IMG/VR virus record: IMGVR_UViG_3300025610_000117
Coordinates: 1 to 27,518 of that record
Direction: 5' to 3' (one strand)
Length of the DNA stretch: 27,518 bases
Origin: a virus
Lineage: Duplodnaviria; Caudoviricetes
The notes below the pieces were generated by a model that was not told where the DNA came from, did no database searches, and saw nothing but the letters and a program-made list of their open reading frames with translations. Below are positions 8,821-27,518 of this stretch, piece after piece; the first letter of the stretch is position 1, and every line of letters starts with the position of its first letter. The position numbers and the translations under genes were made by a program.

Positions 8821-8821
8821 A

Positions 8822-10693
8822 CTATATCTCGCAGTTGTTACCAGTGCAAGCTAAAGTCTGTGAGCCTTCAGTCATGTCGCTTTCTTCTGTGATGTCCCAA
8901 GACATTTCAGTTGGGAAGTTAGCAGACATTTCTGCATATTCTTCTGCGCTAATAGGCTCATACGGTGCTTGTTGGTAAGTATGCTCAGAGTAAGGCAAGA
9001 AAGACACACCACTAATTTTGTCAAACTTATTATAGAGCCACTGACCTACTTCAAGAAACTCTTCATCACGATAGTAACACGTCATTGAAGGCTTGTGTTC
9101 ACACCAAAAGTCTTGGTATATCTCCCATAGTTCTAACTGTTCCATAGCACCCATCTCAGAGGCCACCACAGCCCCGTCAGGAGACTTTATAGGGAAGCTG
9201 AATACCTTGGTACTGGGTGACATTACATCGTCCTCTACGGGGATTCCCGCTGCTTCCAGTACTTGACACAATGGGTCTCTTGCATCTGCTCGAACTCGTC
9301 TAATGTACTGATCTGAGTATCTAGGGTGGATACCAGAAGCAGAATCAACCAGCTGACTAACAGTACCGGAAGGTTTAACAGCAGTAATGGCAGTGCTAGG
9401 ATTAATACCAAGCTTTGTAGCCCAATGCTTGTTAGTTTCAATAGCCTCTTCTTTAAGCTCCGTGAGCCAAGTTTTAAGAACACCTTTGTCTCTCCTTCCT
9501 GATAGCGTTGGGTGATCCATAATGCCTGTAAGACTAACACCCAACAAAGCCTCTTCTTGTGTGTTGTTCTGCCATACCTTTCTTAAGTACCTAAAGTCTG
9601 TGAGGGTAGCCTGTAGAGTTCCAAGGATAGTCGCAACACGTATTTTTCGTTTAAGGTCTGACAGCGTATCGGTTGACCTGACAACAACTTCCGACAGGTT
9701 GCAGAACTGATAGGGTCTGAGGATAATTTCACTGCATGGATTAGTTCCAAAATCATAGGTAGCATCTCGTCGCTCGTTCTTTGCAGCTTGCTTTTGACTT
9801 GCGACTCTAGAGAACATACCTCGTTCTCCGGAGCGGGACTCGTATAAACTTTTCCACTCATTTAAAAATGCCTCAAAGTCTGGCTTCTCTGTATAACACG
9901 CACTGTTGTTTGCTAGTCCTCGTTGGGGATTGTCTTGCCACCACTGGCCTGACTTGCATCGTCGGAGTCTATCGTCAGTGAGGTTACTAAGACTGATGAG
10001 AGCACTTCGCCTAACTCCTCCGACGACAACGATTTGTGCAATCTTACAGCAGATATCGTGACACTCGATGGAGGAAAGTTTACGTCCAGCAGCTTCCCTA
10101 AAGATTTCTGTGGTAAATTTAAAGAGGTCAACAAGAGGCTCCGCACCAGACGCTCTACCTCCAAAGGTTTTAAGGGCTGCCCCTGCAGGTCGTACTCCAG
10201 ATACGTCCCACTTTGGAAGCTGACCCGAATACAACAAGCTAATAAGTTCTCGATATGCTTTAGCCCATCCAATTTTGCTGTCAGCGACGTGTATAACGGT
10301 ATCTGTTTCATGAAACTCTTCTGCTACCTCCGGTAATTTAGTTACGTATTGTCGTTCAACACTAAAGCCTACGCCTGTTCCGCACATAAGTACATACATC
10401 ATCTCGTCAAACGCTTTAGGGTGATCAATAGGCATATAGCTACAGTTAAAGCCTGCAACATTATCACGATCCAATGCTTCACCAGCGGTCATTAAGGCTC
10501 GCATAGATGGCATGACGCTAAGGTCGTGAATGTCTGCAAAAATACCGTTGGCCTCTTCAAGAGTAAGTTTGTTTTTTTCAATCCAAAAGTTTAAGTAGCG
10601 ATCAATTGTTTCTTCCCATGTCTCACGCCGCTGCTCGTCTGGCAGATACCTAGCGTATCGTGACTTGTGAATATATTGTTGGTAGAGGTCCAT
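8822..10693 (-). CDS. nrdJ: ribonucleotide reductase, class II (adenosylcobalamin-dependent, monomeric RTPR-like)
   Basis: FNCS, GTGVGFS, GGVRRSA, TNPCSE (radical Cys), CNL, VKPSGTVS, C-terminal CTGNNC redox pair; no NrdB beta subunit in the window. Confidence 0.9.
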   Translation of the reverse strand: MDLYQQYIHKSRYARYLPDEQRRETWEETIDRYLNFWIEKNKLTLEEANGIFADIHDLSVMPSMRALMTAGEALDRDNVAGFNCSYMPIDHPKAFDEMMYVLMCGTGVGFSVERQYVTKLPEVAEEFHETDTVIHVADSKIGWAKAYRELISLLYSGQLPKWDVSGVRPAGAALKTFGGRASGAEPLVDLFKFTTEIFREAAGRKLSSIECHDICCKIAQIVVVGGVRRSALISLSNLTDDRLRRCKSGQWWQDNPQRGLANNSACYTEKPDFEAFLNEWKSLYESRSGERGMFSRVASQKQAAKNERRDATYDFGTNPCSEIILRPYQFCNLSEVVVRSTDTLSDLKRKIRVATILGTLQATLTDFRYLRKVWQNNTQEEALLGVSLTGIMDHPTLSGRRDKGVLKTWLTELKEEAIETNKHWATKLGINPSTAITAVKPSGTVSQLVDSASGIHPRYSDQYIRRVRADARDPLCQVLEAAGIPVEDDVMSPSTKVFSFPIKSPDGAVVASEMGAMEQLELWEIYQDFWCEHKPSMTCYYRDEEFLEVGQWLYNKFDKISGVSFLPYSEHTYQQAPYEPISAEEYAEMSANFPTEMSWDITEESDMTEGSQTLACTGNNCEI

Positions 10694-14939: not shown

Positions 14940-16579
14940 ATTTCATCTCCAAACTCATCAATCATAGTATCCATGTCTACCTCTGATAAGCGTCCGGTTT
15001 CTTTGTCGTAAAACAAGTGTGTTGCAAGTCCGACATCGCCTGTGTATCTAGACTTCAGTACACGTACTTTAGTTGTACAGGCAACCATAGGGTCGTCAGA
15101 CTGTTGGTTACGCTCTAAGCTTATCACACAATCGCTTAGTTGCGCAATAGATTGAGACCCACGTAAATGATTTAGTGCTGTCTCAATACCATTCTCGTGA
15201 CCTCGATCACCCTGTGTACGTCGCAAGTGTGAAACAAGAATCATTCCACAGCCTGTCTCTTCTACAAGAGTTCGAAGTCTGTGCATAATCATGTCAATAG
15301 CTTTACGCTCATCGGGGTCATCGGACAAAAGAACTAGCATGTGGAGGTGGTCAAGAACTATCCACTTGCAGTCACAACCAATGATCATGTACCGCAGTTT
15401 GCTAAATACACTTTCGAGGTCGTTCATGCCGAGGTGACCATAGACCCACACACGATCTTTATTGTCGCCGTCAAACATTTGGTGGTGTATCTGGCGAAGA
15501 TCGTCTTGATCAAAAAGATTACGAACACTGTCGAGGTGCAGTCGGGCATCAGCTTCAATAGAAAGTATGCCGTCGATTGTACGCTGCCAGTTTTCTTCGA
15601 GAGCCATAACGCCCACGTTGTCTCTAGTCTTTTTGATCAGCCAGTGTTCCAGTTCTCGTGTGACACTAGACTTACCAAGACCAGTACCACCCGTCAAAGT
15701 AACTAACTCACCCGCACGTAAGCCCTCAAGCTTTTCATTGAGGCCCTTCCACGGAAAGGGAATAGAGTCTTTGCGTGTACGGTGAAGATAGTTATCAACA
15801 TTTTCTGACACATTGAGAACACCCGAAGGTGTGTAGAGCTTGGCGTTCCACCAGTTGTGTACAAAAGCTTTGTGCTGTGAGCCACGCAACATATCGTTAG
15901 CATCTTTGTAGTCTACCGGAAGCTCCATAATTTTAGCTTTGCCGGGCCTTAAAAGCTTTGCGACTTTCTTTGCAGCGTCACGACCATGCTTGTCGTTGTC
16001 AAAGCAAATAATAATATTATCGAAAGATTCTAGAAACTCTAGGCTGTCTTTCACATCACGATCTGCTGACTGTGCGCCATTGCGAATAGATACCACAGGC
16101 CATTGCGACCCCATCAATTCGTAGGCTGACATGGCATCTACTTCACCCTCAACAAGGGTAACGTATTTACCACCGGATTGAAAAAGCTGTTGACCGAAAA
16201 GGCCAGCACCTTTGTTAGTTCCTGTCCACAAAAAATTCTTATCGGGCTTGCGAATCTTAGAACCAATCTGCTCGTTGCCAGAGTAATAGGGATATACATG
16301 CTCAACAATCTTGCCTGTTGAATCTTTAACGGAACGAACTCTGTATTTCTTTGCGGTTTGTAGGCTGATACTTCTATCAGTTAGGGGGTAAAACTCTCCG
16401 TGATTTGTATTCATGGGTGCCTTCTGGAAGTTAGTAATAGAAGTCACATTGTTTTCCTGTTTAGGTTTTGGAGTAAAAACTCCGCAGCTAAAACATTTGA
16501 CAGATCCATCATCGTTCATAGCTGCGCAGTCAGAACCCCCACACTCAGTGCAGGGGATATGAGTTTGAACAAAAGACAT
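14936..16579 (-). CDS. DNA primase-helicase (T7 gp4-like)
   Basis: N-terminal CxxC..CxxC Zn finger; TOPRIM EGEVD/FDND/KDAND; Walker A GGTGLGKS; LDHL; LRGS..IAQLSD; KSRYTG. Confidence 0.96.
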   Translation of the reverse strand: MSFVQTHIPCTECGGSDCAAMNDDGSVKCFSCGVFTPKPKQENNVTSITNFQKAPMNTNHGEFYPLTDRSISLQTAKKYRVRSVKDSTGKIVEHVYPYYSGNEQIGSKIRKPDKNFLWTGTNKGAGLFGQQLFQSGGKYVTLVEGEVDAMSAYELMGSQWPVVSIRNGAQSADRDVKDSLEFLESFDNIIICFDNDKHGRDAAKKVAKLLRPGKAKIMELPVDYKDANDMLRGSQHKAFVHNWWNAKLYTPSGVLNVSENVDNYLHRTRKDSIPFPWKGLNEKLEGLRAGELVTLTGGTGLGKSSVTRELEHWLIKKTRDNVGVMALEENWQRTIDGILSIEADARLHLDSVRNLFDQDDLRQIHHQMFDGDNKDRVWVYGHLGMNDLESVFSKLRYMIIGCDCKWIVLDHLHMLVLLSDDPDERKAIDMIMHRLRTLVEETGCGMILVSHLRRTQGDRGHENGIETALNHLRGSQSIAQLSDCVISLERNQQSDDPMVACTTKVRVLKSRYTGDVGLATHLFYDKETGRLSEVDMDTMIDEFGDEI

Positions 16580-16580
16580 A

Positions 16581-16811
16581 TTAGTCCTCTACTGGTTCAG
16601 ATTCCTCTTCTGTGACAATAGCTTCTTCAGTTAGAAACTCTTGTACTTTTGCGTGTAGTGCAACAGCCGCAGCTTGTGCGATAACCGTGCGGTCTTCAAG
16701 ACCTCGCACATCCTGCTCTGCCGTGACTAAAAGCTGGAAGGCCTTCTGGCCCTCCGGTACTAAAAATTCTACATTATATGTAGCGCCTTCATGTACATAA
16801 GTAACGCTCAT
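16581..16811 (-). CDS. hypothetical protein with acidic tail
   Basis: Coupled between ssb and primase (TAATG). Confidence 0.7.
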   Translation of the reverse strand: MSVTYVHEGATYNVEFLVPEGQKAFQLLVTAEQDVRGLEDRTVIAQAAAVALHAKVQEFLTEEAIVTEEESEPVED

Positions 16812-17233
16812 TATATTTCATCCTCTTCTTCTTCAACATCAAACTCAGCACCGTCTGGTGCATCGTACTCTACAAGATCTAGAACTTGCATAGCTTGAAA
16901 ATCTAAGCCACGAAAGTCTTGACCATTCCATTGTGTTTCCCATTCTTTGTACTGAACTTTTACGTGAGAACCATTGCCAACTGTTACGTTGATTTCTCGC
17001 TTGCTTTTGTCGTAAAGCTTTGGTGCCTCACGAATCATGCCACGAGGACCGTCAACTTTACGCTTTATAATAAGCGCTGGGCCTTCGTCCATGTCTTTTA
17101 CGGTAAAGCCACGGTTGCGAAAACTGTCGGCAACCTCGTCATCGACTACGAGATTAACAGAATACGCTGGTGTGTATTTAGTGTTTGGCGTAGTGACAAA
17201 CGACCAGTACGCTCTGCCTTCAAGAACTGCCAT
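16811..17233 (-). CDS. ssb: single-stranded DNA-binding protein (T7 gp2.5-like)
   Basis: VGNGS.VKV, QAMQVLDLVEY, acidic C-terminal tail; GGAG RBS. Confidence 0.85.
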   Translation of the reverse strand: MAVLEGRAYWSFVTTPNTKYTPAYSVNLVVDDEVADSFRNRGFTVKDMDEGPALIIKRKVDGPRGMIREAPKLYDKSKREINVTVGNGSHVKVQYKEWETQWNGQDFRGLDFQAMQVLDLVEYDAPDGAEFDVEEEEDEI

Positions 17234-17236
17234 ATT

Positions 17237-17455
17237 TTATCTCCTGTATAGATAATTAATAAAGTTTGGTATTTGCTTGAGGATAAAATCCTCGTTTAGT
17301 TCGACACCTTGATCGACTGCCTCCATCTTAATCCATGTCTGCATCAATGTCAAGGCCGGTTGGTTTGGTAGATGTACGCCCAGCATCATAGCAAACGCAC
17401 GGGCAATGACATCTTCTATTACTTCATCTTGGGTTAGCTCATTGTATTCATACAC
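17237..17455 (-). CDS. hypothetical protein
   Basis: GTG start with AAGGA RBS; 72 aa. Confidence 0.6.
   Translation of the reverse strand: MYEYNELTQDEVIEDVIARAFAMMLGVHLPNQPALTLMQTWIKMEAVDQGVELNEDFILKQIPNFINYLYRR
17325..17353 (-). promoter_or_regulatory. sigma70-type promoter for ssb/replication genes
   Basis: TTGACA (17353-17348), 17 nt, TAAGAT (17330-17325). Confidence 0.7.
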
Positions 17456-17460
17456 TCCTT

Positions 17461-17706
17461 TTACTCCGCTATAGTTGCTGTAATAAGAGCATTAAGTTTG
17501 ACGGTATCTAAAAGAAAATTAAACTCTTCAGCTCCTAAGTCAGAAGACATAGTAATTGCTCCATCTGTTTCTGTCAATAGTATAAAAGTACCATATGTAT
17601 TATTACCAACTTCTTCTGTAATTTTTACAGTAGCTCTTTCAATCTTAGATAAAAGTGTTAGTTCTTCTGGTTTGTTTTTAGTAAAGTCTCCATTGACTAC
17701 CTTCAT
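17461..17706 (-). CDS. hypothetical protein (81 aa)
   Basis: MKVVNGDF start at 17706, GAGG RBS, ATGA overlap. Confidence 0.65.
   Translation of the reverse strand: MKVVNGDFTKNKPEELTLLSKIERATVKITEEVGNNTYGTFILLTETDGAITMSSDLGAEEFNFLLDTVKLNALITATIAE
17549..17577 (-). promoter_or_regulatory. sigma70-type promoter (intragenic)
   Basis: TTGACA (17577-17572), 17 nt, TACTAT (17554-17549). Confidence 0.65.
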
Positions 17707-17993
17707 AAATTTACCTCTTGTAATAAACGATCTAAATACCACTTGCATTTTCTTAGATCTTCTATGGGTTTACCTTTATAATCATATCTCCAAAGATACT
17801 TTAGGGCATTTCCTTTTAGATAGCCTCTGAATTCATTCTCGGGCATAGAAGCTTTAATAGCTTCAATAGCTTCAATAGCGCCATTGTTATAATGATCAGG
17901 TCGCATAACAGGATCAGGACTTTTTCGAATAGAAAGATCATTGAGTTTTTTCATAGCGTCCCACTGGTCTGGGCTTGCACTATCTATAGACAT
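17703..17993 (-). CDS. DUF3310 (SaV-like / T7 gp1.7-related) protein
   Basis: P.HYN.G.IEAIEAI...GN.LKYLWRY.YKG..EDL.K..WYL. Confidence 0.9.
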   Translation of the reverse strand: MSIDSASPDQWDAMKKLNDLSIRKSPDPVMRPDHYNNGAIEAIEAIKASMPENEFRGYLKGNALKYLWRYDYKGKPIEDLRKCKWYLDRLLQEVNL

Positions 17994-18163
17994 TAGTATT
18001 CTCCTTCACGAATTTTCTGCAGTATATCATAGGTCTGTTGGTAACTCAAGTTTAAAGCTTCAAGACCTTTGAGTATTGCAGCATAGTTTGGGCTTTCGCT
18101 ACAATAGATATTCATAAACACAAGGTCTGAAATAATGGCTTCAACATCGGTTGCTTCAAGCAT
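17993..18163 (-). CDS. hypothetical protein (56 aa), not in ORF track
   Basis: GGAGG RBS; MLEATDVEAII...IREGEY; TAATG coupling. Confidence 0.65.
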   Translation of the reverse strand: MLEATDVEAIISDLVFMNIYCSESPNYAAILKGLEALNLSYQQTYDILQKIREGEY

Positions 18164-18171
18164 AATGCCTC

Positions 18172-18450
18172 CTAAATTATATTTACATAATCATCGTTGA
18201 TAATTGTCTGTATATGGATATAACCTTCGGGCCAGTAAGTGTAGGTTTCTTTAAGAGCCTTTGCTGTTCTATGTACTGATGCCTCAAAGTGTTCAAACAT
18301 TCCTAGCTCTTCTTTACAGTACCAAAAAGGTATGCGAAGTACTGGCTCAGCTGGTCCATGTTCTTCATAGTAAACAACAATTTCAGCGTCGTTGCTAACT
18401 GCATTGTCGTTTCCAAAGTGTTTAGTGTGTTTGTTTTCTGGCTGTTTCAT
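18172..18450 (-). CDS. hypothetical phage protein
   Basis: ATGA overlap with AOX stop; 92 aa. Confidence 0.65.
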   Translation of the reverse strand: MKQPENKHTKHFGNDNAVSNDAEIVVYYEEHGPAEPVLRIPFWYCKEELGMFEHFEASVHRTAKALKETYTYWPEGYIHIQTIINDDYVNII

Positions 18451-19010
18451 AAAGACATTCTCATATTAGCGTCAGCATGGCGCTGTTCATCGGCCCTAAC
18501 ATAGCGAATCATTGTGGCTAGGGTTGCTTCTGGTCCAAGACCGTAATAGTTACGGGCAGAGGCTGGGCAAACAACGTCTTCTGCTTTGCCACTTTCTACA
18601 AGATTTAAATATTCAGTATAACTATTAACTGCTTCTTGTTCAAAGTATGCTACCATACGATGCGCTGTTTTGGAAGAGCAAATGTATAATAGCAGGTAAA
18701 AATGCCAAAAAATAAATTGGGCCGCAGTAATTAAAAATCTTTCAAACACATTGGGCTGTGCAATTTCTAAAAAAAACATAAGATGCATACGCTCGTTCTT
18801 AGCTTCTTCAAGCATTTGATTTATGTAAGGATCATAGCCCCGCCGAAGGCGACGTAAACTTTTAAGATGTAACATCATGCCAGCCACCATAGCTGGAACA
18901 GCCGCTACTGTTTCAAGAACTACAGCACGGTGACCGTACCTTTTTGCAAAGAAAGTATCTGCTGTCCATTTAAAAAAGCTCGTCATGCTGCGAGCAAAAA
19001 AGTCTTTCAT
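18447..19010 (-). CDS. aox: alternative oxidase (ubiquinol oxidase, di-iron carboxylate)
   Basis: LETVAAVP.MV, EEA.NERMHL, YFEQEAV.SY and RADE..H motifs; GGAGG RBS. Confidence 0.93.
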   Translation of the reverse strand: MKDFFARSMTSFFKWTADTFFAKRYGHRAVVLETVAAVPAMVAGMMLHLKSLRRLRRGYDPYINQMLEEAKNERMHLMFFLEIAQPNVFERFLITAAQFIFWHFYLLLYICSSKTAHRMVAYFEQEAVNSYTEYLNLVESGKAEDVVCPASARNYYGLGPEATLATMIRYVRADEQRHADANMRMSL

Positions 19011-19313
19011 TTACACCTCCTTTATTAAAGCTACTATTAACATAAAAAATGATATGCCGTTCAACATTATCAAAGCCCTATCTCGCCAGATGACAGAGAC
19101 CCAAGTCCACAAGGCTATCCCTACTGTACCAAACATAAGATCGTATATCCTATACTCTGGACCAGCAGACCTCAAGGCTAAACTACAAAGAACTACAATA
19201 GATGCAACCCACTTTAAGTACCAATCAAAATTATCAGGATACCAATTCCTATCGGGCTTGTTGCGACCCAGAGCGCGAACTACTGGGTCTCCTTTTCCTT
19301 CGTTGCCCTTCAT
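19011..19313 (-). CDS. small integral membrane protein (DUF6552-like, ~3 TM)
   Basis: DWYLKWVAS...LW..VS..WRDRALI.LN; three hydrophobic segments. Confidence 0.7.
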   Translation of the reverse strand: MKGNEGKGDPVVRALGRNKPDRNWYPDNFDWYLKWVASIVVLCSLALRSAGPEYRIYDLMFGTVGIALWTWVSVIWRDRALIMLNGISFFMLIVALIKEV

Positions 19314-19642
19314 AAGTCGCTAGGCCAAGCAACAGTTAAATCAGATCTATAATAACTAATGATGCTGTCTGTAATTAACGATAAAAACTCTCGTTGTTCT
19401 GTGACCTCCATCTTTTTAAATAAAGATAAAAGGCTTGCTCCCGTTGTACAAACAGGGCGATACTCTATATCTAACTGTCGTGCGGCCTCCTGAAAATCAG
19501 GAAGCTCCCAGCAATGAATTTTTAGTATATCAACAATTGAAATATAATTGTTTTCCATTATATCAACTACTTCTTTTGCATTTTTTAATTCAATGTCTGT
19601 AGCATCAATAGGAATATCATCGACAATATAAACTCTAGCCAT
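19310..19642 (-). CDS. hypothetical protein
   Basis: 110-aa ORF tightly packed in the operon. Confidence 0.6.
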   Translation of the reverse strand: MARVYIVDDIPIDATDIELKNAKEVVDIMENNYISIVDILKIHCWELPDFQEAARQLDIEYRPVCTTGASLLSLFKKMEVTEQREFLSLITDSIISYYRSDLTVAWPSDL

Positions 19643-19643
19643 G

Positions 19644-20573
19644 TTATGCCGCCTTTAAATATTTACGCAAAGTTGAAATAGAATCTTGCTGGCGCTTGAA
19701 CTGAACAGACGCAAGGGTATCTTTGTTACGAACATTATCAGCGTGGGTTGTGTAATCTGTTACTGCGTTATATGCAGCCCACTCTGTATTACCTAGTCGA
19801 GGTACATAAGTATCATAATAAACATTAAGAAGGTAATTAAAGCCTGTGTTTTGACGCTTAAGATGGTGTCGAACCATGTAGGGGCTAACGCCCTCGTTGA
19901 AGATAAGATCTTCTACTTGATCACCAATACCAACAATGTCTGCAAACATTAGACAAGCGTGGATAGGCTCAATAGAGTTTGTATACATACGCTTCCAAAC
20001 TTCACGCTCTTCTGTAAAGAAATCTAAAGACTTTACAATGGTTCTTGAAGCTTTATCAAGATCTAAGTTAAGGGTGTGATTACCTTTGAAGACCGCAACC
20101 TCCCCAGAAATAAATACTTGGAGATTCGTACACGCTTGTTGGATTGCCGCCGCACTGATGACAAACGGAAAGCTACTGTCAATAGATGTTGTAGCCAGTA
20201 AACCCAATGAGGCGGTATCACCATCTGGAGTTTCATAAGTATGAGCAGGCAACTTATACTTTACAAAAGATCTTGCACCGTCGTGACTCACTGCGATCTG
20301 TTCGCTGATGCCATCGGTATTCAGGCCACTACGCAATATAATTTCTCGCGCAGTTTTGATAACGTCTTTAGGGGCTACCGCTTTGTGACGAGACGAGTGA
20401 ATACCTAAAGCTTTCTTAGTATCGGTGCGATAGGTCACCCACTTATCAGTTTCATGATAACTATAATCAGAACTAAACAACGCAGGTGTTGTAGCAATAT
20501 CAAAGTCTGCGTCACCAAAGCCCCCGAAAGTATCGGAGGCGTTAGAGTTAAACATATTAAACACATTAGACAT
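19644..20573 (-). CDS. DUF932/DUF945 family protein
   Basis: ACTNL and WAAYNAVTDYTTH motifs; GGAG RBS. Confidence 0.85.
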   Translation of the reverse strand: MSNVFNMFNSNASDTFGGFGDADFDIATTPALFSSDYSYHETDKWVTYRTDTKKALGIHSSRHKAVAPKDVIKTAREIILRSGLNTDGISEQIAVSHDGARSFVKYKLPAHTYETPDGDTASLGLLATTSIDSSFPFVISAAAIQQACTNLQVFISGEVAVFKGNHTLNLDLDKASRTIVKSLDFFTEEREVWKRMYTNSIEPIHACLMFADIVGIGDQVEDLIFNEGVSPYMVRHHLKRQNTGFNYLLNVYYDTYVPRLGNTEWAAYNAVTDYTTHADNVRNKDTLASVQFKRQQDSISTLRKYLKAA

Positions 20574-20589
20574 GGTTGTCTCCTAAAGT

Positions 20590-20775
20590 TTACTGTAAAA
20601 TAAGCTTACCTTCTGGTGGCACATCAGCATCACCATTTAATTCTTTAGAATGAGTTATTGATATTGTATCAATTAGCTCATATTCTCTACAGTAGTCGTT
20701 ACAAACTACTGCTTGCGATAAATAACAAGAAGGTAATTTTATAAGTGCATCTATTAATTCTTGATAAGTCATCAC
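20590..20775 (-). CDS. hypothetical protein
   Basis: MTYQELIDALIKL start typical of phage early genes; GGAG RBS. Confidence 0.6.
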   Translation of the reverse strand: MMTYQELIDALIKLPSCYLSQAVVCNDYCREYELIDTISITHSKELNGDADVPPEGKLILQ

Positions 20776-20780
20776 AACTC

Positions 20781-20987
20781 CTACGCTGCACGTTCAACAA
20801 TTAATTGGCGTGGAATATCTACAAGCTTTCGGAATCCAATCGGACGCGACTTGGAATGCTGAAGATAAAAACCATACTTGCCAATCTGAAAACTGTAAAA
20901 ACATTCGCCTTTTGAGACGCTGTAGCGATTCTTTACTTTACGCTTACGAATCATGTAGCTTTTGTTAAACAACTTTCCTGTATTCAT
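20781..20987 (-). CDS. small basic hypothetical protein (68 aa)
   Basis: Start MNTGKL at 20987 with GGAG RBS; the longer track ORF runs over the promoter. Confidence 0.65.
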   Translation of the reverse strand: MNTGKLFNKSYMIRKRKVKNRYSVSKGECFYSFQIGKYGFYLQHSKSRPIGFRKLVDIPRQLIVERAA

Positions 20988-21043
20988 GTTCACTCTCCTA
21001 TGAGTTTGGTAGTTTGAAAGCCCCACTGCTTCGAGGCCATTAC

Positions 21044-21072
21044 AAGGTAACACGATTGCCGCTTGCTGTCAA
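21044..21072 (-). promoter_or_regulatory. sigma70-type promoter with extended -10
   Basis: TTGACA (21072-21067), 17 nt ending TGT, TACCTT (21049-21044). Confidence 0.7.
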
Positions 21073-21263
21073 GCCCAATCACGCCCATGTTTTTTTCTAT
21101 ACAGCATCTCGAAGGCATCAAGATAATCCAAATACTTATCTATTTCATCTTTGAAATATCTTTTATAATACATCTTCTCAACACCGATAGCTATCTGTTT
21201 GTCGTGAGAAAAACTAAACTCCCACGCCTGCTTTAATAAACTTAATCTAAGATCTTTTCTCAT
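21069..21263 (-). CDS. hypothetical protein
   Basis: MRKDLRL start by ATGA overlap (alternative start 21275). Confidence 0.55.
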   Translation of the reverse strand: MRKDLRLSLLKQAWEFSFSHDKQIAIGVEKMYYKRYFKDEIDKYLDYLDAFEMLYRKKHGRDWA

Positions 21264-21463
21264 GGCTGACCCCATTCCTTGCCTAACCTATCTACAGCCT
21301 TTATAATATTATCATGGTCTTCGTCGGTGAGTAGCGGCAATACATCACCAAGCTCAGGATATTTATCAAATACAACAGAATCTAATTCAATAATTTTGTC
21401 GTAAGGGCAATAAGTATAACTTACAGTTATATTTAAACTAAGCCTAATGTTTTCAGTCTGCAT
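21260..21463 (-). CDS. hypothetical protein
   Basis: MQTENIR start with GGAGG RBS. Confidence 0.6.
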   Translation of the reverse strand: MQTENIRLSLNITVSYTYCPYDKIIELDSVVFDKYPELGDVLPLLTDEDHDNIIKAVDRLGKEWGQP

Positions 21464-21632
21464 CTGCATCCTCCAAAATAAAGTCATCACATAATTCTAC
21501 ATCGAGCGTGTGTACTTTTAAAAACTCATCCCAGTCTGCAAACTCATCGAACAACTCTTGAGCATGGTCTCGATTCTCAGCTCGTACTTTAACCTCAAAA
21601 ATTCTAGTTAAAAATATTTGATATGTTTTCAT
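21453..21632 (-). CDS. acidic hypothetical protein (59 aa), not in ORF track
   Basis: MKTYQIFLTRIFEVKVRAENRDHA...; ATGA overlap; GAGG RBS. Confidence 0.6.
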   Translation of the reverse strand: MKTYQIFLTRIFEVKVRAENRDHAQELFDEFADWDEFLKVHTLDVELCDDFILEDADAD

Positions 21633-21787
21633 TCTACTAATCCTCTATGGTATAAATCATTTGAAAGTGTTACCATCATTTTTTGTAAACGCATTACATC
21701 TTCTTCTAAAGAATCTACTTCAAGATCATCTAACAAACAAGCAATCTCTAATTCAATATCATAAACTAAATCGGATAGTGTCGTCAT
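21629..21787 (-). CDS. acidic hypothetical protein (52 aa), not in ORF track
   Basis: MTTLSDLVYDIELEIACLL...; GAGG RBS. Confidence 0.55.
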   Translation of the reverse strand: MTTLSDLVYDIELEIACLLDDLEVDSLEEDVMRLQKMMVTLSNDLYHRGLVE

Positions 21788-21795
21788 GTCAAACC

Positions 21796-22398
21796 TCATT
21801 GCACTAAATAATTATAATGAGCTTCAGAAACTTCAAAGCCATTGTTCCACGATTTGTCTCTATCTCCTAGAAAATTACACCAATTGTTCCAAAGTTGTTC
21901 GGTCCCAATACTGTGACAAATGTTTACATATTGATTTATTTTTGAGCGTCGAAGATCTTCAGACTTCAAAGTGTTCGGAAGCTTTAAATGTTTTTCATTA
22001 ATACCATACATTCTAATATTATGAGTGTCGATACAGCCAACCAGCCCCGCCGTCAATTGACAAACAAATCCAGCCTTAGCAAGTCCAAGCCCCGGCACCC
22101 TAAGAAATATTCGCATGAGCGTTGCAGCTTTATCGGCTTCGGATTTATTAGAGTTTACAACGGCCATAAACTGACCGTACATAAAATCTTTACGAGCCTG
22201 AAGATACTTGTATGTTTTCTTTTTATTGCCCCACAAGAATCGTGAGTCGCCGCCTTCGGCTTGAACATCTTTCATCTGATAACCTACGGTTGACCAATTT
22301 TGCTGAATGCTGAGAGCCACCATGAGTATCACATTTGATAAATTATTTGCAGACTCTTGAGCATATTGCTGGATTGCTATGCCGTGAATGTTATACAT
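21796..22398 (-). CDS. HhH-GPD superfamily DNA glycosylase-like protein
   Basis: HhH motif FLRVPGLGLAKAGF followed by GCIDTHN (catalytic Asp position); GGAG RBS. Confidence 0.7.
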   Translation of the reverse strand: MYNIHGIAIQQYAQESANNLSNVILMVALSIQQNWSTVGYQMKDVQAEGGDSRFLWGNKKKTYKYLQARKDFMYGQFMAVVNSNKSEADKAATLMRIFLRVPGLGLAKAGFVCQLTAGLVGCIDTHNIRMYGINEKHLKLPNTLKSEDLRRSKINQYVNICHSIGTEQLWNNWCNFLGDRDKSWNNGFEVSEAHYNYLVQ

Positions 22399-22612
22399 TG
22401 CGTATCTCCTGTAAAAATTTACTTACACTTAAATTAGAACTTGTCACTGCCTCGTGGAACTCGTAAACATCGACCATCGTCCAAGATTGGTTGAGCCTCT
22501 TGCCCCACGCCTCTACTAAGATACCACAGAAATCGTCGTCGTCAAGGCAGTAACGCACCTTGCGTTCGTAATTTAATTTCTTGATTCTTTGAAGATTACC
22601 AACACTCTTCAT
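22391..22612 (-). CDS. hypothetical protein
   Basis: MKSVGN start with GGAG RBS. Confidence 0.6.
   Translation of the reverse strand: MKSVGNLQRIKKLNYERKVRYCLDDDDFCGILVEAWGKRLNQSWTMVDVYEFHEAVTSSNLSVSKFLQEIRNV
22518..22545 (-). promoter_or_regulatory. possible sigma70 promoter upstream of the glycosylase gene
   Basis: TTGACG, 16 nt ending TGG, TATCTT (extended -10). Confidence 0.4.
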
Positions 22613-22850
22613 CGGTCTTTCTCCCAAACAATTCTGTTAATCTTTCTTTGGACGGAGCTTCGTGAAGTTTTAATTCTCTAGCTGAATAAGTATATACAAC
22701 CTTATCACTAACCTCTCGAACTCGATAACCTGCGTTTTCTTTTAGCGCCCTTCGGCCTGCTTCGACCTTGGCCTCTTCATAATATATTGTAGTTAACACT
22801 TCAGTCCAATTACCTTCACCGTTTTCTCTTTCAAGAATATATTCTTTCAT
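22596..22850 (-). CDS. hypothetical early protein
   Basis: GGAG RBS; 84 aa. Confidence 0.65.
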   Translation of the reverse strand: MKEYILERENGEGNWTEVLTTIYYEEAKVEAGRRALKENAGYRVREVSDKVVYTYSARELKLHEAPSKERLTELFGRKTDEECW

Positions 22851-22945
22851 TTTGAATAACTCCCTACAATAAAGCCAAAGCCTATTGACACCATGCTTAC
22901 CAACACATGGGCTGCTAAAAATATTTCAAGTTGGAAACAAACCAT
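22847..22945 (-). CDS. hydrophobic peptide (32 aa), not in ORF track
   Basis: MVCFQLEIFLAAHVLVSMVSIGFGFIVGSYSK; GGAGG RBS; ATGA overlap. Confidence 0.5.
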   Translation of the reverse strand: MVCFQLEIFLAAHVLVSMVSIGFGFIVGSYSK

Positions 22946-22946
22946 A

Positions 22947-23063
22947 TTACTGGCCTCCCATAACTTTAAAATTATATTTTAACATTGCCCACGCATGATG
23001 ATCGTCGGAGCAAGCAGATATAAAACTTAGTAAATCATCAATAGTCATCATATTGGTATTCAT
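22947..23063 (-). CDS. hypothetical peptide (38 aa), not in ORF track
   Basis: MNTNMMTIDDLLSF...; GAGG RBS; fills gap. Confidence 0.45.
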   Translation of the reverse strand: MNTNMMTIDDLLSFISACSDDHHAWAMLKYNFKVMGGQ

Positions 23064-23067
23064 AATA

Positions 23068-23295
23068 TTATTCCTCATCCCAAGGTATCATTTTCTCCCA
23101 ACAGGGAGGACAGTGATAAACGCCACTGTCAGCCCCAATAAGTATTTCACGATCATTCGCATCCAGCCAAGGAAATATATTTTGAACCAAGGCATTGCGG
23201 TCGGCTTTGTAATATTCCCAATATTTTCTGGGGACATCGACGGCCTGTAAAGATTTACACATGTTGCATTCAACCATAACAGCTGTGTGTTCCAT
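23068..23295 (-). CDS. small Zn-finger protein
   Basis: CNMC...QNIFPWL...REILI...CPPCW. Confidence 0.7.
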   Translation of the reverse strand: MEHTAVMVECNMCKSLQAVDVPRKYWEYYKADRNALVQNIFPWLDANDREILIGADSGVYHCPPCWEKMIPWDEE

Positions 23296-23495
23296 TACAT
23301 TAATTCCTCTAATTCTAAATATTGATCGTGAATTTCATCGTACCATTCATTTACGATATCAATGCAATCTTCTAAGCTTTCAGCTTCAGTCCAAACATCG
23401 CCCTTGTCATCCATGATGAGCCAAAAGAATTGTATATTCTTTAGGGTGAAGTAGCGATACTTGTAAAGTTTAGAATTTAATTTTTTTAATTCCAT
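23295..23495 (-). CDS. hypothetical early protein
   Basis: AAGGA RBS; TAATG coupling. Confidence 0.6.
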   Translation of the reverse strand: MELKKLNSKLYKYRYFTLKNIQFFWLIMDDKGDVWTEAESLEDCIDIVNEWYDEIHDQYLELEELM

Positions 23496-23507
23496 GATAA
23501 TAATTCC

Positions 23508-23708
23508 TTAAAATTCAAAGCCAGCAAAACATTCTGTTTTACCTTTACGGTAAACAACCTTGTTAGCATCAACCCACGAAGTCAACTCATAAGCTTTACT
23601 GTATCTACAGTATTCACCTCGAATATAAACATTAGCTGTCGGCTGTCCTTTACGGACAAGTTTAACGAAGTCGCCTTGCTTAACATTTTTAATGTTAGTT
23701 TGCTGCAT
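23508..23708 (-). CDS. hypothetical early protein (beta-rich)
   Basis: GAGG RBS; IKNVKQGDFVKL...VYIRGEY. Confidence 0.65.
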   Translation of the reverse strand: MQQTNIKNVKQGDFVKLVRKGQPTANVYIRGEYCRYSKAYELTSWVDANKVVYRKGKTECFAGFEF

Positions 23709-23743
23709 AATATTATCCTCAAGATTAATTAAAAGTTTATGAA

Positions 23744-23764
23744 ACCCTGATTAAGCATCAGGGT
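23744..23764 (-). terminator. hairpin over the stop of the first early gene (weak terminator or processing site)
   Basis: ACCCTGAT-5 nt-ATCAGGGT 8-bp stem followed by TTCATAAACTTTT. Confidence 0.4.
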
Positions 23765-24266
23765 CAGTTTCGAGGTAAGCCATAATAATATCAAGCTTCG
23801 CTTCGAAGGTAGCAAGTTTCTTGTCGGTTGCATCCTGTCGCTTTGTGATGGCATCAAACCGTGCTTGGAACTCAGAGAGTTCTGACGTATCCGCTTGAAT
23901 CTTTTTAACGGTGGTTGTTTTCTCAGCCTTCGGCTTCGAAACCTTCGGAGTATCCTTAATGACAGCCTTAGTCTTCTTAGCCTTAACAGGCTTAGAAGTC
24001 ATCATGTTGGTAAACTTCTTTGGAATCGTTTCAGCTTCGAAGAAGCGACTCACATCGGCATGAGTGATAGGAGTTTCAGTATTTTCATTCTGAAACTTTA
24101 AGAGGATAGCGCTGAAGATTTTGGAGAGTCTGTAAGACTCCGAAGGTGTTTTGCCACCGACCTTACCAAAGTGCTTGGCTACAGCATAAAGCTGTCGTGA
24201 TGAGGCGGTGCGATTCCCATCGACGTTAACGAAAATCTCTGATTTTTGAAGGTTCGAAATGCTCAT
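23751..24266 (-). CDS. first early gene; protein with Lys-rich linker and C-terminal coiled coil
   Basis: GGAG RBS 8 nt before ATG at 24266; KPVKAKKTKA...KPKAEK tract. Confidence 0.75.
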   Translation of the reverse strand: MSISNLQKSEIFVNVDGNRTASSRQLYAVAKHFGKVGGKTPSESYRLSKIFSAILLKFQNENTETPITHADVSRFFEAETIPKKFTNMMTSKPVKAKKTKAVIKDTPKVSKPKAEKTTTVKKIQADTSELSEFQARFDAITKRQDATDKKLATFEAKLDIIMAYLETDPDA

Positions 24267-24325
24267 GTTCATTACTCCGTAATGGTTTTAGGTTTGAAGC
24301 AACGCTCTGTCGCTGTTGCCATTCC

Positions 24326-24355
24326 ATTAAGGGCAGAGTTTCGAAATTTTTGCAA
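24326..24355 (-). promoter_or_regulatory. candidate early promoter
   Basis: TTGCAA, 18 nt, CTTAAT upstream of a structured leader. Confidence 0.4.
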
Positions 24356-24435
24356 CCTCTTTCCCTGCGCATTATGCGGTTGTGAAAGAGCGTGTGATGT
24401 GATCGGGTGAGAAAACTCAGCGGTGGATTTTTACT

Positions 24436-24755
24436 CAATATAGAATATATTGGAAGTTGTTGGAATCATTGGAGATTTTGGAATCGAGTTATAAATCTTT
24501 AAAGATTTCTAAAGGTTTCTGGAGCTGTCCACTAGAGAGTCTTTAAAAATTTTATAAATTTTCTATACGCCTCATGCGAGACTGAGAAAATCTTTAGAGA
24601 TTTTCGAAGTCTTTAGGGGTACGCAGGTGCCCATGCCCCCTCCCCCGTATATATATACATGCTCAAACATTTTTGGAGATTTTTGGAGTGTCTACCAGTT
24701 GGCCCCACAGACCTTTAAAGCCCAGACATAAAAAAAGGCCCACCGGCCTTTAAAG
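24436..24755. repeat. short-repeat and palindrome region; probable genome terminus/terminal-repeat junction
   Basis: TTGGA at 24450/60/69/78 and 24673/83; CTTTA(A/G)(A/G)(G/A) six times; palindromes 24493-24508, 24586-24605, 24647-24658; located between the divergent arms upstream of terS. Confidence 0.6.
24730..24751 (-). terminator. intrinsic terminator
   Basis: AAAGGCC-GGTG-GGCCTTT stem with a run of 7 U on the - strand. Confidence 0.8.
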
Positions 24756-24810
24756 AGACACCCACGATAGTGGGCGAGTAGATGTATATATATGCACCTC
24801 TGACGGGTAC
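24730..24810 (-). ncRNA. putative ~81-nt small RNA with three stem-loops
   Basis: Bounded by a perfect sigma70 promoter and an intrinsic terminator; no AUG or RBS inside. Confidence 0.7.
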
Positions 24811-24817
24811 AAATATT

Positions 24818-24846
24818 ATTATACACCTGTATTTCAATTTTGTCAA
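24818..24846 (-). promoter_or_regulatory. consensus sigma70 promoter (leftward)
   Basis: TTGACA (24846-24841), 17 nt, TATAAT (24823-24818). Confidence 0.88.
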
Positions 24847-24879
24847 TGAAATAATACCAAAAAAAGATAAATAAAGTTC

Positions 24880-24908
24880 TTGACAAAGATACAATATAGG
24901 TATATAAT
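24880..24908 (+). promoter_or_regulatory. consensus sigma70 promoter (rightward, packaging operon)
   Basis: TTGACA (24880-24885), 17 nt, TATAAT (24903-24908). Confidence 0.88.
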
Positions 24909-24915
24909 GTATAAC

Positions 24916-25320
24916 ATGGAAACTAAAAAAGAATTGACAGTAAAACAACAAGACTTTCTTGACAATCTTATTGCTTGTGGAGGCAATGCACGTCAAGCTG
25001 CTGAACTAGCAGGCTATGCAGCAGGAAGCTACACAGCAGTTGTAAAAGCTCTTAAGTCTGAGATACTAGATTTAGCTGAAGGCGTGTTGGCCGTAAACGC
25101 ACCTAAAGCGGCTCTGAAGCTCGTTCAAGTTATGGAGAGCGATGAGCCTATCCCTCAAGCTAATATTCGTGTACAAGCCGCACAGACGCTCCTAGACCGT
25201 GTAGGAGTTGCAAAGAAAGAAAGGCTTGATGTTAAAGTTGAAACGCCAAGTGGATTGTTTATTCTTCCGGCTAAAGCTCCGACTATTATTGAAGATGTAG
25301 AATATGAAGAGACGGACTAG
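24916..25320 (+). CDS. terS: terminase small subunit
   Basis: HTH LTVKQQDFL...GGNARQAAELAGY; AAQTLLDRVG; upstream of terL; ATG 24916 at the predicted +1. Confidence 0.8.
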   Translation: METKKELTVKQQDFLDNLIACGGNARQAAELAGYAAGSYTAVVKALKSEILDLAEGVLAVNAPKAALKLVQVMESDEPIPQANIRVQAAQTLLDRVGVAKKERLDVKVETPSGLFILPAKAPTIIEDVEYEETD

Positions 25321-25531
25321 TAGTACAATTCCATTTGGTTACAGGTTAGTAGATAATGATTTTGAACACATCGAAGAGATACCCAGCGAACTTGAAGCTT
25401 TAAACAAGATACTACCGATGATTAAATCAAAATCTTTGTCTCTACGCGAGGGTGCGTTGTGGTTGACCCATGAAACTGGTCGCTCTATATCCCATCAAGG
25501 ATTACAAAAAATAATCAAAAAAGATGGATAA
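25304..25531 (+). CDS. small DNA-binding protein (recombinase-domain/HTH-like)
   Basis: STIPFGY...SLRE.A.WL..ETGRSISHQGL. Confidence 0.7.
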   Translation: MKRRTSSTIPFGYRLVDNDFEHIEEIPSELEALNKILPMIKSKSLSLREGALWLTHETGRSISHQGLQKIIKKDG

Positions 25532-27206
25532 GAACGATTGGGATTTAAACCCACAAAACTATTTACAAAATGAAGACGGTAGCTTTAAGCTAAAAGCTGA
25601 TGGCACCCCCAAGAAAAAACCCGGAAGGCCAAAAGGCTCAAAGGGCAGGGGATACAACTATCACTCAAGAACTAAAGCAAAACAAGAAGCTTCAAAAAAA
25701 GTAAGGACAAAAAAGAAAAAAATAGCGCAGGCACGTTCCGCTATCTCACGATACCAAAAATCTGTTGAGAATACCGAAAAAGCCCTAGACTTGCTAGAAG
25801 ACAACAACAAAAGTAAAGTTGTTGAAGAGACGTTTGTAGAAGAAGCAGCATCTTCGCTCAAGACTGAGTTGAAAGAGAATGTTATATTTAGTCCTAATGA
25901 GGGACCACAAACTGATTTCTTGGCTGCGGGTGAAACAGATGTATTGTACGGCGGTGCGGCTGGTGGAGGCAAAAGCTATGCGATGTTGGTTGATCCACTT
26001 CGCTTTGCACATAGGGGAGCGCATAGAGCATTAATCCTGCGACGTTCTATGCCAGAGTTACGAGAACTTATCGACAAATCTCGTGAACTTTATCCCAAAG
26101 CCTTTCCCGGCTGCAGATATCGTGAAGTAGAAAAGCTTTGGAATTTTCCAAGCGGTGCAAAAGTTGAATTCGGTTTCTTAGAACGAGATGCAGACGTATA
26201 TCGTTATCAAGGACAAGCATACAGTTGGATAGGTTTTGACGAAATTACCCATCTCCCAACCGAATTTTCTTGGAACTATTTAGCTTCACGATTACGAACA
26301 ACTGATTCAGAAATAGTACCTTACATGCGCTGTACAGCAAACCCCGGCGGTTCTGGCGCACAATGGGTTAAGAAAAGGTACATTTCACCATCACCACCTA
26401 ACGAGTCTTTTATGGGTGATGATGGAATTACACGTAAGTTTATTCCAGCAAGATTGAATGACAATCCGTATCTGGCACAAGATGGTCGATACGAACAAAT
26501 GCTAAAAAGCTTGCCGCCTACTCAGCGCAAACAGTTGCTTGAGGGTAACTGGGAAATTGCAGAAGGCGCAGCATTTACAGAGTTTGACAGGCATCTCCAT
26601 GTCGTTGAGCCGTTTGAAATCCCACTACACTGGGAACGAACCAAAGGACTTGACTATGGTTATGCATCAGAATCAGCTTGCGTTTGGGCCGCACTTGACC
26701 CTAGCGACGGAACGCTGATTATATATAGAGAGTTATATAGAAAGGGTCTTTTAGCTACAGAGTTAGCAGAAATGCTTACTAACATGGAACTAAATGATCC
26801 AACTTCTGTCAGAGGCGTATTAGATACAGCGTGTTGGTCACGCACAGGAACTACTGGCCCGACAGTTGCAGAAACCCTAATACAAGGTGGACACAAATTA
26901 CGTCCTGCAGATAAGAACCGTGTTGCAGGAAAAATACAGATACATGAACACTTAAAAGTTCAACCATCTGGCAGGCCACGAATGCAGATATTTAATACTT
27001 GTCCTAATCTGATTCGTGAACTACAAGGCATTCCGCTTGATAGAAATAATCCTGAGGATGTTGATACACACGCTTCGGATCACGCTTACGACGCACTACG
27101 ATACTTAATTATGTCTAGGCCACGAATAAATGATCCGCTAAGTCAAATACGTAATTTACAGCGTGAACAACACTTTCAGCCTTTCGACTCGACGTTTGGT
27201 TACTAA
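25524..27206 (+). CDS. terL: terminase large subunit
   Basis: Walker A YGGAAGGGKS, Walker B WIGFDE, TANPGG coupling motif, RNase H GLDYG and DHAYDALRY. Confidence 0.95.
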   Translation: MDKNDWDLNPQNYLQNEDGSFKLKADGTPKKKPGRPKGSKGRGYNYHSRTKAKQEASKKVRTKKKKIAQARSAISRYQKSVENTEKALDLLEDNNKSKVVEETFVEEAASSLKTELKENVIFSPNEGPQTDFLAAGETDVLYGGAAGGGKSYAMLVDPLRFAHRGAHRALILRRSMPELRELIDKSRELYPKAFPGCRYREVEKLWNFPSGAKVEFGFLERDADVYRYQGQAYSWIGFDEITHLPTEFSWNYLASRLRTTDSEIVPYMRCTANPGGSGAQWVKKRYISPSPPNESFMGDDGITRKFIPARLNDNPYLAQDGRYEQMLKSLPPTQRKQLLEGNWEIAEGAAFTEFDRHLHVVEPFEIPLHWERTKGLDYGYASESACVWAALDPSDGTLIIYRELYRKGLLATELAEMLTNMELNDPTSVRGVLDTACWSRTGTTGPTVAETLIQGGHKLRPADKNRVAGKIQIHEHLKVQPSGRPRMQIFNTCPNLIRELQGIPLDRNNPEDVDTHASDHAYDALRYLIMSRPRINDPLSQIRNLQREQHFQPFDSTFGY

Positions 27207-27209
27207 TAT

Positions 27210-27518
27210 ATGAATGAAGACATCTTAGACAGCGCAGACAATATTTATTTCACAGAAGTTGAAAATGAAGATGGTCTTAATGTTGAGTTAGACGAAAGCC
27301 TCAAATCTAATCTTGCAGGTCTTATCGAAGCGCGTTTTACTAGTGCAGAACAAGCGCGTGAACACGATGAAGATCGCTGGATTAATGCTTATCATAACTT
27401 TCGTGGTGTGTATCCAAAAGGAATTCCTTTCCGTGAAAGCGAAAAGTCTAGAGTCTTTATTAAAATTACAAAGACTAAAGTATTAGCAGCATATGGACAG
27501 TTGATTGATGTTATCTTT
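27210..27518 (+). CDS. portal protein, 3'-truncated
   Basis: MNEDILDS...RW..AY.NFRG.Y....EKSRVFIKITKTKVLAAYGQLIDVIF; directly after terL; open to the window end. Confidence 0.8.
   Translation, partial: MNEDILDSADNIYFTEVENEDGLNVELDESLKSNLAGLIEARFTSAEQAREHDEDRWINAYHNFRGVYPKGIPFRESEKSRVFIKITKTKVLAAYGQLIDVIF

What the first reader, a model, noticed from the sequence alone, without database searches (positions are those of the whole stretch)
24730..24846. Undescribed ~81-nt phage small RNA divergent from the terminase operon
A perfect TTGACA-17-TATAAT on the - strand predicts +1 at G24810. Transcript: GUACCCGUCAGAGGUGC (stem 1) AUAUAUAUACAUCUACU (single-stranded) CGCCCAC-UAUC-GUGGGUG (stem 2) UCUCUUU AAAGGCC-GGUG-GGCCUUUUUUU (terminator). 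It has no AUG or RBS. A maximal-strength promoter closed by a terminator 80 nt later is hard to explain except as an RNA gene. The three-stem-loop layout resembles Hfq-type sRNAs; I do not recognise a known family.
Basis: partly seen in the sequence, partly recalled or inferred. Interest (0 to 1): 0.85.

Follow-up and report, generated by a model that had tools for sequence, protein, structure and literature searches.

The report
Outward promoter at phage genome end
A perfect host-type promoter, conserved across a large group of aquatic phages, points at the predicted end of the packaged genome and likely makes a short untranslated RNA that works locally on that DNA end, rather than being a conserved free-acting regulatory RNA.

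Summary
The promoter, three hairpins and U7 tract are there as described, and Rfam has no match. The phage is HTVC103P-type. The near-perfect outward promoter is present in 133 of 133 checkable related loci, and a sense-strand 5' hairpin folds in 58 of 63 sequence clusters. The terminator occurs in only 5 of 63 clusters and is missing in the sister clade; stem 2 was seen only in the window's own clade. The promoter points at a predicted ~164-bp direct terminal repeat (about 24652-24489). Evidence: 2.2-4-fold DNA depth in two runs, a 10-bp motif found only at 24698 and 24535, the same motif repeated 160-280 bp apart in relatives, and two contigs ending at the predicted cuts. Best reading (0.5): a host-sigma70 counterpart of T7's right-end promoter phiOR, whose short transcript likely opens or primes DNA beside the repeat. 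An ~81-nt RNA is plausible in this clade but is not a conserved sRNA gene. No RNA data test it. Three DTR-type or related phages lack the promoter, so it is not universal. The scan filed a similar terminus region in a soil phage (e1-372215). New variant of a known kind; interest 0.42.

The parts
24818..24846 (-). Outward sigma70-type promoter TTGACA-17-TATAAT (-35 at 24846-24841, -10 at 24823-24818)
24793..24811 (-). Hairpin 1 at the predicted 5' end of the transcript; the only family-wide structure
   Evidence: (58 of 63 clusters at or below -4 kcal/mol; sense strand better in 52, antisense in 10)
24785..24793 (-). Alternating TA tract after hairpin 1 (candidate easily melted stretch; inferred)
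   Evidence: Sequence; similar tracts in many relatives
24759..24776 (-). Stem 2, seen only in the window's clade; CCCAC/GTGGG core kept with variable loop
   Evidence: 15 of 15 close relatives by eye; not recovered by RNAalifold
24730..24751 (-). Intrinsic-terminator-like hairpin plus U7, built on one CTTTAAAG repeat copy
   Evidence: a terminator in 5 of 63 clusters, 25 of 129 loci
24713..24755 (-). Two CTTTAAAG short-repeat copies (starting 24755 and 24720)
   Evidence: CTTTRRAG 10.9 per kb in these segments against 0.31 per kb in the window, present in 52 of 63 clusters
24615..24698 (-). Conserved end block: motif 1 CTRGTDKACA (24698-24689), AAAATGT, TA tract, G- or C-run, TGG.CACCTGC; spans the predicted cut near 24652
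   Evidence: Profile hits; 129 rows carry promoter plus block, two of them placed by hand
24489..24652 (.). Predicted direct terminal repeat, about 164 bp (boundaries approximate)
   Evidence: Depth 114 against 42-52 (X2) and 394 against 99-182 (X4); contigs L239 and L233 end at the predicted cuts; motif period 163 bp
24526..24535 (-). Motif 2, second copy of CTRGTDKACA, about 37 bp before the other predicted cut
   Evidence: Only two copies in the whole window; 31 of 40 downstream hits at 160-279 bp in relatives
24880..24908 (+). Divergent perfect promoter of the terminase and virion arm; terS mRNA predicted leaderless
   Evidence: at least 10/12 in 63 of 63 clusters; ATG 6-9 nt after the -10 in 48 of 63
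24916..25320 (+). Terminase small subunit
   Evidence: phrog_51, E 2.8e-7; 53-57% to HTVC103P/104P/115P TerS
25524..27206 (+). Terminase large subunit
   Evidence: phrog_979, E 8.5e-63; 62-65.5% to HTVC103P/104P/115P
23751..24272 (-). First ORF of the early and replication arm, on the far side of the predicted repeat
   Evidence: no PHROG family

Best explanation
This is a conserved outward-facing host-type promoter next to the predicted right-hand terminal repeat of an HTVC103P-type podovirus, and it likely acts in cis, like T7's phiOR, by making a short untranslated RNA that would open or prime the DNA at the genome end. Shown here: the promoter, its conservation, the lack of an ORF, the 5' hairpin, the patchy terminator and the repeated end motif. 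Strongly inferred: a ~164-bp direct terminal repeat starting about 160 bp downstream of +1. Inferred and untested: the phage has a T7-like polymerase and primase-helicase but no RNA polymerase hit among the 44 ORFs scanned, so host sigma70 polymerase would do phiOR's job. It would initiate here, melt the TA tract and leave a short RNA, protected by the 5' hairpin, that primes replication or repeat duplication or helps load terminase on concatemers. Terminators gained in some lineages (and perhaps Rho on the C-rich filler in others) would keep this strong promoter from reading into early genes once the ends are joined.
For: Promoter 11-12/12 in 133 of 133 checkable rows. SD-plus-ORF in 1 of 63 clusters. 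The body varies from 70 to 252 nt with no folding signal past about +30. Terminus evidence: depth against a simulated 2.4-2.8-fold; motif period; two contig ends. T7 has the same order of parts: phiOR 549 bp before a 160-bp repeat with CCTAAAG copies on both sides. phiOR plus the junction are used to package plasmids (bioRxiv 10.1101/2024.04.20.590424, passage), and paused polymerase recruits gp18/gp19 (PMC3276506, passage). Cobavirus ICBM2, with PacBio-mapped repeats (PMC6775973 passages), has a 12/12 outward promoter 385 bp before its right repeat.
Against: ICBM1 (threshold 10/12), HMO-2011 and phiM6 (threshold 9/12) have no outward promoter and RHph_N3_19 only 9/12 matches, so it is not obligatory in relatives. 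An efficient terminator in this clade would stop polymerase about 80 bp short of the repeat, unlike the T7 pause model. A conserved sense-strand 5' hairpin suggests RNA stability matters, which also fits a free RNA or a long leader. 10 of 12 nearby contig ends's metagenome set, and all 7 in its viral set, are not at the predicted cuts. One boundary of the deep contig is set by a strain variant, and run X12 shows no depth rise. The end block does not match mapped cobavirus repeats significantly. No transcript, primer or R-loop was observed.
Confidence: 0.5

Rival explanations
1. A trans-acting small RNA: a stable 80-95-nt RNA with a protective 5' hairpin that binds host mRNAs or sponges a host protein.
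For: Perfect gene-less promoter. Sense-strand hairpin with recurrent G-U pairs. Three unrelated terminators end 81-96 nt after the -10 in this clade, L032 and HTVC115P. The stem 2 core survives loop changes in 15 of 15 close relatives.
Against: 58 of 63 clusters have no intrinsic terminator. The body is unconserved in length and sequence. 0 of 13 pairs show compensatory change in the clade. The linker pairs with 42 phage start regions no better than chance (98 of 100 shuffles as good). No Rfam family. Host targets were not testable because the host is unknown.
Confidence: 0.2
2. A read-through early promoter: once the ends join by the repeat, it drives the early arm through a ~500-nt leader stabilised by the 5' hairpin.
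For: It is the strongest promoter facing the early arm; the best sites inside the left arm score 7-11, mostly 8-9, in 52 clusters. 58 of 63 clusters lack an intrinsic terminator.
Against: Terminators sit between it and the early genes in 25 of 129 loci, this window included. The filler is C-rich (C 1283, G 817; C>G in 54 of 63 clusters), which would favour Rho termination (inference). On linear incoming DNA it lies at the opposite end from the early genes.
Confidence: 0.17
3. The transcript is incidental: the divergent promoter pair serves to supercoil or tune the terminase promoter, or to hold polymerase.
For: Both promoters co-occur in 63 of 63 clusters and form a 29-nt, 79% inverted repeat here.
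Against: It does not explain the strand-biased hairpin. The gap between the two promoters varies widely (-35 position 45-166 nt from terS).
Confidence: 0.09
4. A structural packaging RNA like phi29 pRNA, or a guide that pairs with the cut site.
For: Position next to a genome end. In this window the linker's longest complement anywhere (12 nt) is the TA tract at 24660-24649.
Against: Linker and cut site do not co-vary: own-pair mean 6.11 against 6.20 permuted, 1608 of 2000 permutations as high. There is no conserved fold beyond one hairpin, the phage has TerS and TerL, and Rfam gives no hit.
Confidence: 0.04

Closest known systems
T7 right-end region: promoter phiOR, short CCTAAAG repeats, 160-bp terminal repeat, concatemer junction
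   Same: An outward promoter upstream of a ~160-bp terminal repeat (predicted here), with short xxTAAAG-type repeats around it, in a phage with a T7-like polymerase and primase-helicase.
   Different: A host sigma70-type promoter rather than a phage-polymerase promoter; about 160 bp rather than 549 bp from the repeat; no gene between (T7 has 19.5); conserved 5' hairpin; a terminator before the repeat in this clade; virion genes run away from the end instead of towards it.
Cobavirus (Zobellviridae) ends, ICBM1 and ICBM2, repeats of 172 and 159 bp
   Same: Two-armed genome, repeat in the gene-free gap. ICBM2 has a 12/12 outward promoter, a hairpin and a terminator-like stem before its right repeat.
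   Different: ICBM1 lacks the outward promoter. The end block found here does not match their repeat starts significantly; the likeness is by eye only.
Hfq-type base-pairing sRNAs (properties recalled)
   Same: Own promoter, 80-nt size, hairpins and a U-rich terminator in this clade.
   Different: No conserved seed, terminator or length across relatives; no Rfam match.
phi29 pRNA (recalled: transcribed towards the genome end by host polymerase)
   Same: An untranslated RNA from an end-facing host promoter.
   Different: No conserved multi-helix fold, no Rfam hit, and a two-subunit terminase phage.

Membership tests
Hfq-type trans-acting sRNA gene | Own promoter and no ORF | tested here: met
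Hfq-type trans-acting sRNA gene | Intrinsic terminator conserved among homologues | tested here: not met
   5 of 63 clusters; absent in the sister cluster
Hfq-type trans-acting sRNA gene | Conserved single-stranded seed with complementary targets | tested here: inconclusive
   No conserved body and no phage target; host targets not tested
Hfq-type trans-acting sRNA gene | Discrete transcript, Hfq binding | not testable with these tools
   RNA runs were available only as contigs, and in two runs a contig crosses the gap between the promoters
T7 phiOR-like right-end promoter | Lies upstream of and points at the right terminal repeat | tested here: met
   Repeat inferred; not physically mapped
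T7 phiOR-like right-end promoter | Recognised by a phage RNA polymerase | tested here: not met
   Sigma70 consensus; no RNA polymerase hit among 44 ORFs scanned, genome incomplete. Hence an analogue, not a member
T7 phiOR-like right-end promoter | Short repeats flanking the terminal repeat | tested here: met
   CTTTRRAG 35-fold enriched upstream; related copies inside the predicted repeat
T7 phiOR-like right-end promoter | Needed for replication or packaging from that end | not testable with these tools
   Needs genetics; absence in ICBM1, HMO-2011 and phiM6 argues it is not universal
T7 M-end hairpin site (recalled) | Fold-back on the strand that templates rightward synthesis (the antisense strand here, by my reasoning) | tested here: not met
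   Sense strand folds better in 52 of 63 clusters, antisense z +0.10; the T7 site itself was not recovered by a perfect-repeat scan
phi29 pRNA | Conserved multi-helix fold matching the family model | tested here: not met

The most novel reading that the evidence does not exclude
A family-wide end RNA: HTVC103P-type phages, lacking their own RNA polymerase, use host polymerase to make a short hairpin-capped RNA at the right end that is itself the working part, either the primer that duplicates the terminal repeat or a stable RNA that recruits terminase or disables a host protein. The locus and the predicted cuts (24652 and 24489) would make the open question of how such phages restore their terminal repeats directly testable.
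Probability: 0.25. Interest if true: 0.75.

Novelty: new variant of a known kind. Interest (0 to 1): 0.42.

Why it matters
The HTVC103P-type preprint reports circular assemblies and never mentions termini, terminal repeats or promoters (passages of bioRxiv 10.1101/2019.12.14.876532). This work predicts the terminal repeat to within a few bases and a repeated motif that gives repeat length in relatives. It also names a candidate for how DTR phages without their own RNA polymerase supply the transcription that T7 uses at its right end. It shows that a promoter-plus-terminator cassette at an arm junction need not be an sRNA gene.

Tried and rejected
Rfam at gathering score and at E up to 5 and ARAGORN: nothing. 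blastn of 24200-25000 against cultured phages: three chance-level promoter matches, E 0.8. Exact terminal repeats in the HMO-2011, MQM1, phiM6, HTVC103P and HTVC115P records: none, so these records do not show mapped ends. Profile of the end block against ICBM1, ICBM2, HMO-2011, RHph_N3_19 and phiM6: not significant, best E 0.25; it also missed HTVC103P (E 1.2) and HTVC115P, which were placed by hand. Four RNA runs with small shares: contigs only, from strains that differ; X18 and X20 do not cover the element; X15 and X16 cross the gap between the promoters, so DNA is probably in the libraries; no evidence for or against an 81-nt RNA. The adapter-flanked end at 24647 in X16 is only a hint, since a priming hot spot could give it. 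Guide-RNA co-variation and phage mRNA targets: negative. M-hairpin analogy: wrong strand. Host assignment: 5 genome-bin hits in unrelated taxa, probably mis-binned phage contigs. Paper searches returned nothing, and 74 returned unrelated eukaryotic papers.

Full report
Observation. A 12/12 sigma70-type promoter lies at 24846-24818 on the - strand, and a second 12/12 promoter at 24880-24908 on the + strand; they are the only two perfect sites among 47 in 15000-27518. The predicted RNA, 24810-24730, is 81 nt without ATG and folds into three hairpins, z -4.0, 0 of 200 shuffles as good. Rfam has no match.

Context. PHROGs on 44 ORFs shows a two-armed podovirus: terS, terL and a weak connector hit to the right; small ORFs, primase-helicase, DNA polymerase, nucleases and ribonucleotide reductase to the left; no RNA polymerase hit. 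TerL is 62-65.5% identical to pelagiphages HTVC103P, HTVC104P and HTVC115P. The finding lies in the 640-bp gene-free gap where the arms diverge. The host is unknown.

Relatives. TerS searches gave 78 loci and the best 80 of 555 confirmed stretches. I dropped 12 distant or partial matches with another upstream context (L066-L068, L070-L078) and 12 repeats of contigs already held, and added the window, HTVC103P and HTVC115P: 137 rows. An outward promoter of 11-12/12 was found in 132. The 129 rows with promoter and end block form 63 clusters at 80% identity (the two cultured phages were placed by hand). An SD-plus-start ORF follows in 1 of 63.

What is conserved in the transcript. Hairpin 1 folds at -4 kcal/mol or better in 58 of 63 clusters, though only 24 of 63 reach z below -1.5. 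It is strand-biased: sense better in 52, antisense in 10, mean z -1.15 against +0.10. Sliding windows show a clear excess only at about +2 to +30. On a MAFFT alignment of 61 clusters the covariation score was 0.204 against 0.159 (1 of 500 shuffles), with 69% of cells paired against 29-49% when slid. Two other measures were not unusual (40 and 248 of 500), and the tool warns that relatedness alone can give such scores. The rest is not conserved. The distance from the -10 to the end block is 70-252 nt. An intrinsic terminator was found in 5 of 63 clusters (25 of 129 loci): three of the window's clade, L032 and HTVC115P, with unrelated sequences ending 81-96 nt after the -10. The label needs three changes on the TerS tree. 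The sister cluster L022 (84-85% TerS identity) keeps the promoter and hairpin 1 but not stem 2 or the terminator. The 5' arm of the terminator is a copy of CTTTRRAG, a repeat at 10.9 per kb in these segments against 0.31 per kb in the window.

The promoter faces the genome end. The motif CTRGTDKACA occurs only twice in the window, at 24698 and 24535, 163 bp apart. In the clusters, 31 of 40 downstream hits lie 160-279 bp from the first copy and none at 20-159 bp. In DNA runs a contig at 24489-24643 has depth 114 against 42-52 on its flanks (X2) and 394 against 99-182 (X4). X1 has one spanning contig at 87.5 against 43-59, and X12 is thin and flat. A simulation of sheared linear DNA with a 164-bp repeat gives 2.4-2.8-fold. 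The 24613/24643 boundary coincides with a strain variant, so these edges are approximate, and the runs may be one campaign or include the source sample. Of 34 metagenome loci (one probably the window's own record), 12 end within 400 bp: L239 starts at the equivalent of 24652 and L233 ends 38 nt after motif 2, the positions expected from the motif register; the other 10 are scattered. None of 7 nearby ends among 32 viral loci is at a predicted cut, the nearest being about 12 bp away. RNA-run contigs stop at 24643-24650, one followed by adapter at 24647, a weak hint only. Together these point to a direct terminal repeat of about 164 bp at roughly 24652-24489, beginning about 80 bp past the terminator.

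Comparison with mapped ends. T7 has phiOR 549 bp before its 160-bp repeat and CCTAAAG copies on both sides. Passages read: phiOR plus the junction allow plasmid packaging (bioRxiv 10.1101/2024.04.20.590424; similar in PMC13236587); paused polymerase at the junction interacts with gp18 and gp19 (PMC3276506); cobaviruses have PacBio-mapped repeats of 159-173 bp (PMC6775973; its supplement with the repeat alignment was not read and may bear on the end block). ICBM2 has a 12/12 outward promoter 385 bp before its right repeat, with a hairpin and a terminator-like stem. ICBM1, HMO-2011 and phiM6 have none, and RHph_N3_19 only 9/12 matches. The end block resembles their repeat starts by eye but not by profile. 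The T7 M-hairpin, phi29 pRNA and Hfq-sRNA properties are recalled, not read here.

Mechanism. The fixed parts are the promoter, the first ~25 nt and the position beside the repeat; length, body and 3' end are free. That fits a cis role better than a base-pairing RNA. I favour (0.5) a sigma70 counterpart of phiOR: host polymerase opens the TA tract and leaves a short hairpin-protected RNA that primes replication or repeat duplication, or helps load terminase. Terminators, or Rho on the C-rich filler (C>G in 54 of 63), would insulate the early genes. These steps are inferred. Rivals: free sRNA (0.2), read-through early promoter on joined ends (0.17; left-arm promoters score only 7-11), incidental transcript of a divergent pair (0.09), pRNA or guide (0.04; no co-variation with the cut site). 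Against my reading stand the relatives without the promoter, the terminator that stops short of the repeat, and the conserved hairpin, which implies RNA stability matters.

Novelty. Ten searches of the held library showed no description of this promoter, an RNA or the termini of HTVC103P-type phages; subscription papers are not covered. An earlier scan note (e1-372215) reached a similar terminus reading for a soil phage; I did not test it. Verdict: real and strongly conserved, a new variant of a known kind of phage end region, interest 0.42.

Noticed in passing
window 24880-24918 (+): terS looks leaderless: the ATG lies 7 nt after the -10 hexamer here and 6-9 nt after it in 48 of 63 clusters.
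   Followed up: partly
window 24637-24655 (-); L033, L154, HMO-2011 (L083), HTVC103P (L079): The run after the TA tract at the predicted cut is G-rich in some relatives and C-rich in others, which suggests a double-strand DNA shape signal rather than a strand-specific one.
   Followed up: no
window 24325-24360 (-) and equivalent left-arm sites (L039, L052, L058): Early-arm promoters keep a good -35 (TTGACA or TTGCAA) but have poor -10 elements without the final T. From memory this is typical of alphaproteobacterial promoters and may hint at the host.
   Followed up: partly
window 18447-19010 (-): 187-aa ORF with a weak hit to phrog_4235, plastoquinol terminal oxidase (E 6.9e-5); possible auxiliary metabolic gene.
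   Followed up: no
window 23751-24272 (-): The first early gene encodes a 173-aa protein with no PHROG family and a Lys/Pro/Ala-rich middle part.
   Followed up: no
L038, L050, L058, L060 between promoter and end block: One to three copies of a ~45-bp imperfect palindrome (TAACCGGACA...TGTCCGGTTA type) are inserted, changing the segment length by up to 130 bp.
   Followed up: no
window 8280-8822: Convergence point of the two arms, where cumulative GC skew peaks; cobaviruses have a bidirectional terminator at the equivalent place (PMC6775973). Not scanned here.
   Followed up: no
L117 (OQ628262.1) 184-1883: Aeromonas phage MQM1 carries eight tRNA genes between terS and terL.
   Followed up: no
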